From an uncultured bacterium (GTDB lineage: Bacteria; Actinomycetota; Aquicultoria; SKW223; CALKMS01), in the NCBI GenBank assembly GCA_938091145.1, contig CALKMS010000032.1:1-51259 (forward strand): a DNA stretch of 51,259 bases, in the 5' to 3' direction. A model generated the notes under the pieces. The model worked only from the letters and a program-made list of their open reading frames with translations. It did no database searches and had not been told where the DNA came from. The translations under genes were made by a program, and so were the position numbers. Below are positions 45,991 to 47,825 of this stretch, one piece after another (within the stretch, counting starts at the first letter, position 1; every line of letters starts with the position of its first letter).

Positions 45991-46625
45991 TCTACAGTGA
46001 CTAAGTCTTTTATTTGAGAGAATTTTTTCTTTCCAATCCCTTCGATCTCTTTTAACTCTTCTATTTTTTGGAAGCCTTCGTTTTTTTCTCGATATTCGAT
46101 AATTCTTTGAGCCAGAGTTTCTCCAAGACCCGGTAGAGACTCCAGTTCTTCTAGGCTGGCAGTGTTTAAATTTATCAGTTTGTTTTTATCAGCATTGGTT
46201 GAAGAAAGATTTAAACTGGATTCTTTTCCAGGGATGATGATTTTTTCGCCGTCACGGAGTTTGCGAGCTAGATTAATTGCATCAAGATTAGCCCCTTTTT
46301 TTGTTCCCCCAGCTGCTTTTACGGCATCAATTACTCTTTTGCCAGTCGGGAAGTAATAAACTCCTGGTTTTTTCACTTCACCGCCAATATGGACGGCAAT
46401 TTTGGCTTCTGTGGCAAACTCTTTGCTAAAATTTAGCTTTCTTTCGCTCTTTTCAATTAACTTGAGTGGTTTTGGCAGGGATAGATAGTAGTAAAAGCTA
46501 ACTCCACCGAGAAATAAAAGCAAGAGAATTGCTAGACCGATTTGTTGTTTGAAAGTAAGAACCAAGCCGTTTTCTTCACAAAACTTATCCCATCTCTCTC
46601 TTAAGAAATCAAACCACGCTCTCAA
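45987..46625 (-). CDS. comEA: Competence protein ComEA (membrane anchor, SLBB, helix-hairpin-helix DNA-binding)
   Basis: TTG start 6 nt after GGAGG. VHIGGEVKKPGVY (SLBB) and LNTASLEELESLPGLGETLAQRIIEYR (HhH). Confidence 0.9.
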   Translation of the reverse strand: MRAWFDFLRERWDKFCEENGLVLTFKQQIGLAILLLLFLGGVSFYYYLSLPKPLKLIEKSERKLNFSKEFATEAKIAVHIGGEVKKPGVYYFPTGKRVIDAVKAAGGTKKGANLDAINLARKLRDGEKIIIPGKESSLNLSSTNADKNKLINLNTASLEELESLPGLGETLAQRIIEYREKNEGFQKIEELKEIEGIGKKKFSQIKDLVTVE

Positions 46626-46767
46626 GGCACCCCTCCAAACGATTAAAAGTTACCGTATTATCATTTTTAAATCAACCCCAATTTTAGAAGCGAAATCAGC
46701 ATCTGATATATTGGGGCCTTTTATCGGGTTTTAGAGTGATTGTAACGGATTGAAAAGCATCGATGTG

Positions 46768-46796
46768 TTGAATTGGTTGCTCTTCTATCCTATAAT
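46768..46796 (+). promoter_or_regulatory. Near-consensus promoter for tRNA-Pro (TTGAAT-N17-TATAAT)
   Basis: -35 at 46768-46773, 17-nt spacer, -10 at 46791-46796. The tRNA 5' end lies 22 nt downstream. Confidence 0.6.
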
Positions 46797-46817
46797 CAAG
46801 CTGAAGTTTCATAAAGT

Positions 46818-46894
46818 CGGGGCGTGGCGCAGGTGGCTAGCGCACCAGCATGGGGGGCTGGAGGTCGCCCGTTCAAATCGGGTCGCCCCGACCA
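46818..46894 (+). tRNA. tRNA-Pro (anticodon GGG), CCA encoded
   Basis: Hand-folded cloverleaf. Acceptor CGGGGCG/CGCCCCG, D stem GCGC/GCGC, anticodon stem CCAGC/GCUGG with loop AU-GGG-GG (U33, G37), variable loop AGGUC, T arm GCCCG-UUCAAAU-CGGGU, discriminator A plus CCA. Confidence 0.93.
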
Positions 46895-46945
46895 TTTCAG
46901 ATTGAAACATTGGTCTCTTTCATAATTTAATTGTGTATGGCAAAA

Positions 46946-46986
46946 GTGGCTAGCGCACCAGCATGGGGGGCTGGAGGTCGCCCGTT
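46946..46986 (+). repeat. Exact 41-nt copy of the interior of tRNA-Pro (D loop through the 5' half of the T stem, matching 46833-46873)
   Basis: Base-by-base identity of gtggctagcgcaccagcatggggggctggaggtcgcccgtt at 46833-46873 and 46946-46986. Flanks are unrelated. Flanking GGCAAA at 46939-46944 and 47008-47013. Confidence 0.95.
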
Positions 46987-47205
46987 TTTGCCATACTTTA
47001 ACGGGTAGGCAAATCAATTTTTCGACTAGTGATTAAAGGTTTATTTTGGTTTTATTAGAGAGCCTTTTAGAGTTTTTCTAGCTTTGTTGTGTTTTTGGGC
47101 AAAGATAAAAAATTTTTAAGCTTTGGAGTTTTAAGTTTTTGAGAACCATTTTTTAAAGAGGTGACTGAAATACTTTACTCTAAGGAGTTACGAAAAGATT
47201 TTTAC

Positions 47206-47234
47206 TTACCTGAGAAAGCTTTTTAGGGTAAAAT
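47206..47234 (+). promoter_or_regulatory. Weak possible promoter (TTACCT-N17-TAAAAT) ending 6 nt before the ATG (leaderless candidate)
   Basis: -10 TAAAAT at 47229-47234, then aattgc, then ATG 47241. No SD upstream of the start. Confidence 0.25.
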
Positions 47235-47240
47235 AATTGC

Positions 47241-47825
47241 ATGTCATCATTTGGAAAGCAAAACGAAAAAATTTTTAATTTACCTAATTTGTTGACTTTA
47301 ATTAGGCTAATTATGATCCCTGCTTTTCTTTATTTTTTCTTTCATTGGCCGGTTTTCCCTGTCTGGGCTCTACTTTTATTTGCGTTTTTAACTGATTTTC
47401 TTGATGGCCAGTTAGCTCGAAGATTGGATGAGGTAACCCGTTTTGGAGTTGTTTTTGATCCACTGGTTGACCGCCTTTTTATTTTTTCAGTATTGGTCGC
47501 ATATTATATTCGAGGTTATCTTTCCTTGCTTTTTGTTCTCCCAGTTTTGGCTCGTGATTTCTTAGTCGTGGTTGGTTATCTTTTTTTGAAACTCCGAAAA
47601 GTCTCGTTAGGTGTTTCGCTTTTTGGCAAAATTGCTACTTTTTTGATTTTTAGCAGCTTAGTGATGGTGGTTTTACCTGAAATGGAAAGTTGGGGTCTAT
47701 CTATTTATGTTATAGGCGCTTTAGTTTATTTGTACTCGGCTTTTGATTATTTTCTGATTGCTCGGCATGTCTTAAAAAAAGAAATCTCATCTAAATCTAG
47801 AGCCACCAATTTTCTTGGCGCTTAG
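47241..47825 (+). CDS. CDP-alcohol phosphatidyltransferase family protein
   Basis: Full signature D-x2-DG-x2-AR-x8-G-x3-D-x3-D ([26 protein letters not shown]), [11 protein letters not shown], and about 5-6 TM helices. Confidence 0.88.

What the first reader, a model, noticed from the sequence alone, without database searches (positions are those of the whole stretch)
46818..47013. tRNA-Pro(GGG) followed by an exact 41-nt copy of its own interior, set in competing hairpins
Positions 46946-46986 repeat 46833-46873 without a mismatch. The copied segment runs from the D loop through the 3' D-stem strand, the whole anticodon arm and the variable loop to the 5' T-stem strand, while the flanks are unrelated. 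The copy lacks the acceptor stem and the 5' D-stem strand. After an enlarged 17-nt loop the T-stem partner CGGGU reappears at 47002-47006. AUGGCAAAA (46937-46945) is complementary to UUUUGCCAU (46986-46994), so the copy can fold into a long rod with the anticodon loop AUGGGGG at its tip. The same UUUGCC (46987-46992) can instead pair with GGCAAA (47008-47013), which is a mutually exclusive hairpin. GGCAAA therefore flanks the 62-nt unit as a direct repeat. Perfect identity with abrupt borders argues against slow decay of a duplicated tRNA gene. Several explanations are possible: a recombination or integration scar, although no integrase or island is present and only 72 nt separate the two repeat copies; a tRNA-derived mini-element with a target-site duplication; or a functional anticodon-arm mimic, acting as a decoy or processing signal, that is co-transcribed from the strong tRNA promoter toward the downstream operon.
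Basis: partly seen in the sequence, partly recalled or inferred. Interest (0 to 1): 0.6.

Follow-up and report, generated by a model that had tools for sequence, protein, structure and literature searches.

The report
One-off tRNA-Pro fragment copy in hairpin
Just downstream of a normal proline tRNA gene lies an exact 41-base copy of that gene's middle part, framed by a perfect 11-base hairpin stem; it occurs only in this genome and is most likely a recent DNA-copying accident, not a working RNA.

Summary
tRNA-Pro(GGG) lies at 46818-46894, and 46946-46986 repeats 46833-46873 exactly. The similarity runs to 49 nt with three clustered mismatches. The copy fills exactly the space between two perfect 11-nt inverted arms (46935-46945 and 46986-46996).

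It is not a tRNA gene by ARAGORN or Rfam. It is not part of a repeat family: the 41-mer occurs twice in the 1.26-Mb genome and the arms form no family. No island, integrase or other gene lies between the copies, which are 72 nt apart.

Six related loci, five of them distinct sequences, keep the same comEA / tRNA-Pro(GGG) / CDP-alcohol phosphatidyltransferase layout. Where the tRNA is fully assembled it is identical to the window's. None has the copy or a second tRNA.

My best reading (about 0.55) is a young, lineage-specific partial duplication of the tRNA interior. Replication template switching, a known mutation process, would have made or perfected its stem. It probably has no function.

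Function as an anticodon-arm mimic, a mobile-element scar and an assembly artefact are not excluded, but nothing supports them.

This scan has noted hairpin-associated partial tRNA copies on other DNA before. Those were recurrent families; this one is a singleton. Interest is low to moderate.

The parts
46768..46796 (+). Promoter-like site TTGAAT-17-TATAAT upstream of the tRNA
   Evidence: 10 of 12 consensus matches. The stretch is nearly invariant in same-genus genomes G001 and G002 (alignment).
46818..46894 (+). tRNA-Pro(GGG) gene, intact
   Evidence: ARAGORN. Rfam RF00005, 52.8 bits, E 5.5e-10. 100% identical in G001, G002, L023, L024 and L025/L026.
46833..46873 (+). Source segment M: D loop, 3' D-stem strand, anticodon arm, variable loop and 5' T-stem strand plus TT
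   Evidence: Exact repeat. Mapped onto the Rfam tRNA alignment.
46935..46945 (+). Arm 1, GTATGGCAAAA. Its TGGC is in register with the tRNA's TGGC at 46825-46828.
   Evidence: Perfect 11-nt inverted repeat with 46986-46996 (I8). The three other genomic occurrences of this 11-mer lie in unrelated contexts.
46946..46986 (+). Exact 41-nt copy of M. It is not a tRNA gene.
   Evidence: No Rfam tRNA match at E up to 10. ARAGORN in bacterial mode finds nothing down to ps50.
46986..46996 (+). Arm 2, TTTTGCCATAC. Its first T is shared with the end of the copy.
   Evidence: I8. Pairs with arm 1 at about 0.9 probability in the RNA ensemble.
46987..47013 (+). Alternative small hairpin (arm 2 with arm 3), followed by TCAATTTTTCG
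   Evidence: -9.8 kcal/mol when folded alone. It does not pass the terminator scan.
47005..47014 (+). Arm 3, GTA-GGCAAAT: an imperfect direct copy of arm 1 that is complementary to arm 2 with one bulge
   Evidence: Read from the sequence. Local alignment of 46918-46944 with 46987-47013 scores 25, shuffle p = 0.11, which is not significant.
47241..47825 (+). Downstream gene, a CDP-alcohol phosphatidyltransferase (PgsA-like). A conserved promoter-like stretch lies directly upstream of its start.
   Evidence: NCBIfam TIGR00560, 1.8e-26, below the curated cut-off; Pfam PF01066. The stretch GGGTAAAATTATTGCATG is conserved in relatives.

Best explanation
The feature is a young partial duplicate of the tRNA-Pro(GGG) gene interior, specific to this lineage. 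It measures 41 nt, perhaps originally 49 nt or more, and lies 113 nt downstream of its source. It is enclosed by a perfect 11-bp stem. I infer that it arose through replication or repair errors of the template-switching kind. A direct copy of the nearby tRNA interior was laid down, and a short inverted copy of the adjacent sequence was made or perfected. That produced the 11/11 stem and the clustered GCAG to AAAA change in a single event. It is probably co-transcribed with the tRNA, because no terminator lies between them, and the RNA would fold into a stable rod. I regard that rod as a by-product with no dedicated function. Shown here: the anatomy, the singleton status and the absence from relatives. 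Inferred: the mechanism of origin and the lack of function.
For: - **Exact repeat, exactly framed.** The 41/41 repeat sits exactly between the inner ends of an 11/11 inverted repeat, so the direct and the inverted repeat are linked.
- **Clustered mismatches.** Similarity extends to 46/49. The three mismatches fall within 4 nt, all change to A, and all improve pairing with the TTTT of arm 2. This is the multi-base pattern described for quasi-palindrome template switching (PMC8794818, PMC7202029).
- **Arm 1 looks templated on arm 2.** Arm 1 is a perfect complement of arm 2, including the base that bulges in the arm 2/arm 3 hairpin. It is only an imperfect direct copy of arm 3.
- **Singleton in the genome.** There are two copies of the 41-mer. 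The only other partial tRNA copy is a tRNA-Ser cut by a contig end. The arms form no family.
- **Absent from relatives.** It is missing from G001 and G002 (same genus) and from L023, L024, L025/L026 and L027. All keep the same gene order and, where it is fully assembled, an identical tRNA.
- **Unstable spacer.** The spacer is otherwise fast-evolving and variable in length, 198-346 nt, longest in this genome. It also holds other small local duplications. A neutral copy as old as the species split could therefore not be 41/41.
Against: - No ancestral sequence could be reconstructed. The spacer is too diverged from all relatives to place the switch points, and removing 41, 51 or 62 nt improves the alignment about equally.
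- The event needs at least two or three switches, or a duplication followed by a later stem-perfecting event.
- Perfect conservation of the copy and the stem would also be expected under selection.
- No reads or second assembly of this population could be examined.
Confidence: 0.55

Rival explanations
1. The copy is a functional RNA that mimics the tRNA-Pro anticodon arm. It would be co-transcribed with the tRNA and fold into a rod displaying the loop AUGGGGG. It could then bind or titrate a protein that reads the tRNA-Pro anticodon arm, such as TrmD, ProRS or an anticodon nuclease, or serve as a processing or stability signal.
For: - The anticodon stem-loop is intact at the tip of a -30.8 kcal/mol rod, with arm pairing probability of about 0.9.
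- No terminator lies between the conserved tRNA promoter and the copy.
- Both the copy and the stem are perfect.
Against: - It is absent from all six related loci and from every collection searched.
- The fold is not exceptional against shuffles (z = -1.53).
- The downstream gene is a phospholipid-synthesis enzyme with its own conserved promoter-like stretch, about 250 nt further on.
- The acceptor-like stem starts G-C and is followed by U, not the C1-G72/A73 of the real tRNA.
- There are no expression data.
Confidence: 0.1
2. The copy is a scar of a mobile element that targeted the tRNA gene. It could be an integrase att duplication whose island was later deleted, or the relic of a small hairpin or nuclease cassette of the kind this scan has seen beside tRNA genes in other phyla.
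For: - tRNA genes are the classic integration sites, and integration is the main known source of partial tRNA genes (PMC9897764).
- A same-class relative (L018) carries an att-like 19-nt repeat of the tRNA-Pro(GGG) 3' end about 145 nt downstream.
- CGGGT reappears after an enlarged T loop, which recalls T-loop inserts noted earlier in the scan.
Against: - The repeat is internal and lacks the tRNA 3' end.
- The intact tRNA's 3' part is native, being identical in relatives, and the sequence after the copy is not tRNA-like. Neither att arrangement therefore fits.
- Only 72 nt separate the copies, and there is no integrase, nuclease or foreign gene.
- The flanks match those of relatives.
- The hairpin is not repeated anywhere in the genome.
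Confidence: 0.1
3. The copy is an old tandem duplicate of the tRNA gene whose ends decayed. Its interior would have been kept identical by gene conversion from the working gene.
For: - Register-true TGGC lies upstream of the copy and CGGGT downstream.
- There is a weak resemblance between 46918-46944 and 46987-47013.
Against: - No relative shows any second tRNA or remnant at this site.
- The flank resemblance is not significant (p = 0.11).
- Conversion tracts with such sharp borders, coinciding exactly with the inner ends of an inverted repeat, would be a coincidence.
Confidence: 0.1
4. The copy is an assembly or library artefact: a chimeric molecule or a mis-joined path in a fragmented metagenome-assembled genome.
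For: - The genome is a 163-contig assembly, 91% complete.
- No independent assembly holds either junction.
Against: - Both junctions join unique sequence to the tRNA interior, so they need reads that carry them. A graph error cannot invent them.
- The site lies deep inside a 51-kb contig, 4 kb from its end, with normal gene order on both sides.
- No alternative contig covers the locus.
Confidence: 0.1

Closest known systems
Template-switch (quasi-palindrome) mutations that create or perfect hairpin stems (PMC8794818; PMC7202029)
   Same: A perfect reverse-complement repeat lies next to its presumed template. Several clustered base changes all improve the stem. The pattern can be made by a single event.
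   Different: This case also needs a 40-41-nt direct copy taken from 113 nt upstream, so the event is more complex than the usual four-point switch. The ancestral state could not be reconstructed.
Partial tRNA genes left by integration of mobile elements (att direct repeats; PMC9897764 and, as cited there, Williams 2002 NAR 30:866)
   Same: A fragment of a tRNA gene is repeated in direct orientation close to the intact gene.
   Different: Those repeats include the tRNA 3' end (or the 5' end) and bracket kilobases of foreign DNA with an integrase. Here the fragment is internal, 72 nt away, and no element is present.
Anticodon-arm mimics in mRNA leaders, such as the E. coli thrS operator bound by ThrRS (from my own knowledge)
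   Same: A hairpin presents the anticodon stem-loop of one tRNA outside a tRNA.
   Different: Those operators lie in the leader of the cognate synthetase gene, overlap its ribosome-binding site and are conserved. This copy lies behind the tRNA gene itself, upstream of a lipid-synthesis gene, and is not conserved.
Hairpin-associated partial tRNA copies noted earlier in this scan in Patescibacteria, DPANN and Bacteroidota (e1-2033670, e1-4809525 and others; AI notes, unchecked)
   Same: A dead partial tRNA copy lies beside the working gene and is associated with a hairpin. The T loop appears to be interrupted.
   Different: Those are recurrent families at many tRNA genes, often with a small nuclease gene. 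Here there is a single case in the genome, none in relatives and no nuclease.

Membership tests
Canonical bacterial tRNA gene (a second tRNA-Pro) | Cloverleaf with acceptor stem, D arm and T arm that standard detectors recognise | tested here: not met
   ARAGORN finds one tRNA in the window and nothing in 46900-47060 down to ps50. Rfam gives no second tRNA match at E up to 10. Only the permissive metazoan-mitochondrial mode draws a degenerate 63-nt cloverleaf, and it also calls a His tRNA on the opposite strand.
tRNA-targeted integrative element (att duplication) | The repeat block reaches one end of the tRNA gene (normally the 3' end), so that the element restores the gene | tested here: not met
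   The block covers gene positions 16-56 of 77 and lacks both ends.
tRNA-targeted integrative element (att duplication) | Foreign DNA with an integrase lies between the repeats | tested here: not met
   72 nt lie between the copies. The neighbours comEA and the pgsA-like gene match the gene order in six related loci.
MITE or mini-element with target-site duplication | Multiple copies in the genome or in relatives | tested here: not met
   The 41-mer occurs twice and the arms form no family. There are no hits in 40 relatives or in the metagenome and genome collections.
MITE or mini-element with target-site duplication | Terminal inverted repeats and flanking direct repeats | tested here: inconclusive
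   An 11-nt inverted repeat is present. The flanking direct repeat is imperfect (GTATGGCAAA versus GTA-GGCAAA) and follows from both being complementary to arm 2. Flank similarity has p = 0.11.
tRNA-mimic regulatory operator (thrS type) | An anticodon-arm-like hairpin with the cognate anticodon | tested here: met
   The anticodon arm is identical to that of tRNA-Pro(GGG) and forms in the minimum-energy fold.
tRNA-mimic regulatory operator (thrS type) | Location in the leader of the regulated (cognate synthetase) gene, and conservation among relatives | tested here: not met
   The downstream gene is a CDP-alcohol phosphatidyltransferase with its own conserved promoter-like stretch about 250 nt further on. 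The copy is absent from all relatives.
Template-switch mutation | A new perfect reverse-complement repeat next to its template, with clustered multi-base change | tested here: met
   11/11 arms. Three mismatches within 4 nt, all towards complementarity.
Template-switch mutation | The ancestral state lacks the repeat, and switch points can be placed on an outgroup sequence | tested here: inconclusive
   Relatives lack the copy, but the spacers cannot be aligned at base level.
Intrinsic terminator | A G+C-rich stem directly followed by a T run | tested here: not met
   No terminator-like site in 46400-47400. The T run of the rod lies inside its stem.

The most novel reading that the evidence does not exclude
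The 63-nt unit 46935-46997 is a working RNA: the tRNA-Pro(GGG) anticodon arm re-capped with a new 11-bp stem. It would be made from the tRNA's own promoter. It would act as a decoy or titrator for a factor that reads the tRNA-Pro anticodon loop, such as a modification enzyme, the synthetase or an anticodon nuclease.
Probability: 0.07. Interest if true: 0.6.

Novelty: new variant of a known kind. Interest (0 to 1): 0.25.

Why it matters
If my reading is right, the feature matters only modestly. It would be a clean natural example of a tRNA gene fragment that comes neither from element integration nor from CRISPR uptake, the two sources described in PMC9897764. It would also show how one copying error can create a long, perfect RNA hairpin. 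The two 41-nt direct repeats create a hazard: recombination between them would delete the 3' part of the tRNA gene (my inference). It would matter more only if the rod proved to be an expressed, selected mimic of the tRNA-Pro anticodon arm. Nothing here supports that.

Tried and rejected
- **Independent assemblies:** exact look-ups of the PgsA-like and ComEA proteins found no record. Four collection scans with the two junctions and with relaxed border patterns found nothing. The window's own genome may be hidden in these scans.
- **Repeat family:** the arms, the 22-nt spacerless palindrome and arm pairs with a variable spacer form no family in the genome.
- **Other partial tRNA copies in the genome:** the only other hit is a tRNA-Ser cut by a contig end.
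- **Tandem 113-nt duplication followed by decay:** the flanks after the two copies show no significant similarity.
- **Ancestral-state reconstruction:** alignments of the spacer to relatives are too weak to place borders. No conserved hairpin exists at this place in relatives.
- **Riboswitch-like balance of the two hairpins:** rejected on energies.
- **CRISPR spacer origin:** rejected, because there are no direct repeats of CRISPR size.
- **Link to the genome's abundant REP-like repeats:** they share no sequence with this hairpin, and none lies near it.

Full report
**What is there**

- ARAGORN finds one tRNA in the window, tRNA-Pro(GGG) at 46818-46894. Rfam's tRNA model matches it at 52.8 bits.
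- A promoter-like site, TTGAAT-17-TATAAT, lies at 46768-46796. It is almost invariant in two same-genus genomes.
- The 41 nt at 46946-46986 are identical to 46833-46873.
- In the 1.26-Mb, 163-contig genome the 41-mer occurs exactly twice at up to 3 mismatches. A reversed-pattern control gave none.
- On the Rfam alignment the segment runs from the D loop to the 5' T-stem strand plus TT.

- Direct similarity continues 8 nt to the left, giving 46 of 49. The three mismatches (GCAG versus AAAA) all fall within 4 nt.
- The inverted repeat is 11 nt, not 9: GTATGGCAAAA (46935-46945) and TTTTGCCATAC (46986-46996), 11/11. Its inner ends coincide with the borders of the copy, sharing one T.
- A third arm-like sequence, GTA-GGCAAAT (47005-47014), pairs with arm 2 with one bulge. 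Alone it gives a hairpin of -9.8 kcal/mol.

**More than chance?**

A 41-nt exact repeat cannot arise by chance. By my own estimate, an 11-nt perfect inverted repeat framing it to within a base has odds of about 1e-6 to 1e-5. The genome holds only 145 perfect inverted repeats of at least 11 nt with a spacer of 60 nt or less. Most of them belong to an unrelated REP-like family. The direct repeat and the inverted repeat are therefore linked.

**What it is not**

- **Not a tRNA gene.** ARAGORN in bacterial mode finds nothing in 46900-47060 even at half the normal threshold. Rfam gives no second tRNA match at E up to 10. Only the permissive metazoan-mitochondrial mode draws a degenerate 63-nt cloverleaf over 46935-46997, and it also calls a His tRNA on the opposite strand. 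I give that no weight.
- **Not a terminator**.
- **Not a member of a repeat family.** The arms occur elsewhere only in unrelated contexts. Neither the spacerless palindrome nor arm pairs with a variable spacer recur. A BLAST of the whole spacer against the genome finds only itself and the other tRNA-Pro genes.
- **Not one of several partial tRNA copies.** A BLAST of all 41 tRNA genes against the genome finds just one other fragment, a tRNA-Ser cut by a contig end.

**Context and relatives**

- The neighbours are comEA on the minus strand and a CDP-alcohol phosphatidyltransferase (PgsA-like) on the plus strand. The latter is followed by a nucleotidyltransferase/phosphomutase fusion.
- Among 40 relatives, a search with the 196-nt region found only tRNA genes.
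- Both same-genus genomes keep comEA, the promoter, a 100% identical tRNA and the pgsA-like gene, but not the copy.
- A protein search gave six further PgsA-like proteins at 63-77% identity.
- I fetched the contigs of four of these proteins, P0002-P0005 (71-77% identity). They gave five loci: L023, L024, L025, L026 and L027. L025 and L026 are identical to the G001 locus.
- Where the tRNA is fully assembled, these loci carry an identical tRNA and a single copy of the 41-mer. L027 begins inside the tRNA and shows no copy further downstream.
- The spacer between the tRNA and the gene ranges from 198 to 346 nt and is longest here.
- Spacer sequences cannot be aligned at base level. Removing 41, 51 or 62 nt improves the alignment about equally. 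The exact ancestral state is therefore unknown.
- No relative has a hairpin at the corresponding place.

**How it folds**

- As RNA, 46935-46996 forms a rod of -30.8 kcal/mol with the anticodon loop AUGGGGG at its tip. The arm 1/arm 2 pairs have a probability of about 0.9.
- The energy is unremarkable against shuffles (z = -1.53).
- The alternative hairpin (arm 2 with arm 3) excludes the rod but is far weaker: -23.6 kcal/mol for the region when arm 1 is blocked. The "competing hairpins" exist on paper but are not balanced.

**Best explanation (0.55)**

The feature is a young, lineage-specific partial duplicate of the tRNA interior, with a stem made or perfected by replication template switching. 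The reasons:

- The source tRNA is frozen. It is identical in species whose PgsA-like protein is only 71-77% identical. The spacer, by contrast, evolves fast. A neutral copy that is still 41/41 must be much younger than the species split.
- Arm 1 is a perfect complement of arm 2, including the base that bulges in the arm 2/arm 3 hairpin. It is only an imperfect direct copy of arm 3. It therefore looks templated on arm 2.
- The three clustered changes to A all create pairs with TTTT. This is the multi-base signature described for quasi-palindrome template switching, which can build a perfect stem in one event (PMC8794818, PMC7202029).
- The same spacer carries other small local duplications (D2-D4 and D9).

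The mechanism and the lack of function are inferences. The anatomy, the singleton status and the absence from relatives are shown.

**Rivals**

- **Functional anticodon-arm mimic (0.1).** It fits the intact arm and the probable co-transcription. However, it is not conserved, it sits about 250 nt upstream of the conserved promoter-like stretch of an unrelated gene, and it lacks the real tRNA's acceptor end.
- **Mobile-element scar (0.1).** This is the usual source of partial tRNA genes (PMC9897764). Here the fragment lacks both gene ends, the tRNA's 3' part is native, the gap is 72 nt and no element is present.
- **Old tandem duplicate homogenised by gene conversion (0.1).** No remnant exists in any relative, and flank similarity is not significant.
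- **Artefact (0.1).** Still, both junctions need real molecules, and the site lies well inside a 51-kb contig whose gene order matches that of relatives.

**Comparison with earlier notes of this scan**

Earlier notes describe hairpin-associated partial tRNA copies in Patescibacteria, DPANN archaea and Bacteroidota. They led me to test for a recurrent hairpin family and for a nearby nuclease gene. Neither is present here, so this case does not belong with them.

**Verdict**

I rate it a new variant of a known kind, with interest 0.25.

Noticed in passing
L018 950-1450 (genome G022, same class), minus strand: tRNA-Pro(GGG) at 1354-1278 is followed about 145 nt downstream by an exact 19-nt copy of its 3' end, AATCCAGTCGCCCCGACCA (1133-1115). 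This is a classic att-like repeat running from the T loop to CCA, yet only about 125 nt lie in between.
   Followed up: partly
window 47193-47210 and 47267-47284, weaker copy at 47099-47119; also L023, L024, L025: An 18-nt motif resembling GAAAATTTTTAACTTACC occurs twice, about 40 nt before and about 33 nt after the start codon of the PgsA-like gene. The spacing is 73-74 nt, and the pair is conserved in three related species. It may be a pair of operator sites or an old 5'-end duplication.
   Followed up: partly
own genome, many contigs (for example C65 183-460 and 3380-3760, C83 5311-6020, C126 1821-2600, C102 4441-5280); none near the finding: An abundant REP-like palindromic repeat family built on CTCGCAATGAC / GTCATTGCGAG gave 129 hits at up to 1 mismatch. 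The repeats are often in dense arrays and at contig ends, which probably explains why the assembly is so fragmented. Similar repeats were noted in other genomes of the scan.
   Followed up: partly
window 47114-47143: A 15-nt tandem repeat, TTTTAAGCTTTGGAG x2, lies in the spacer upstream of the PgsA-like gene.
   Followed up: no
window 47241-47825: The collection's gene call for this protein is 170 aa (88% of the 194-aa frame), while relatives are 192-196 aa.
   Followed up: no
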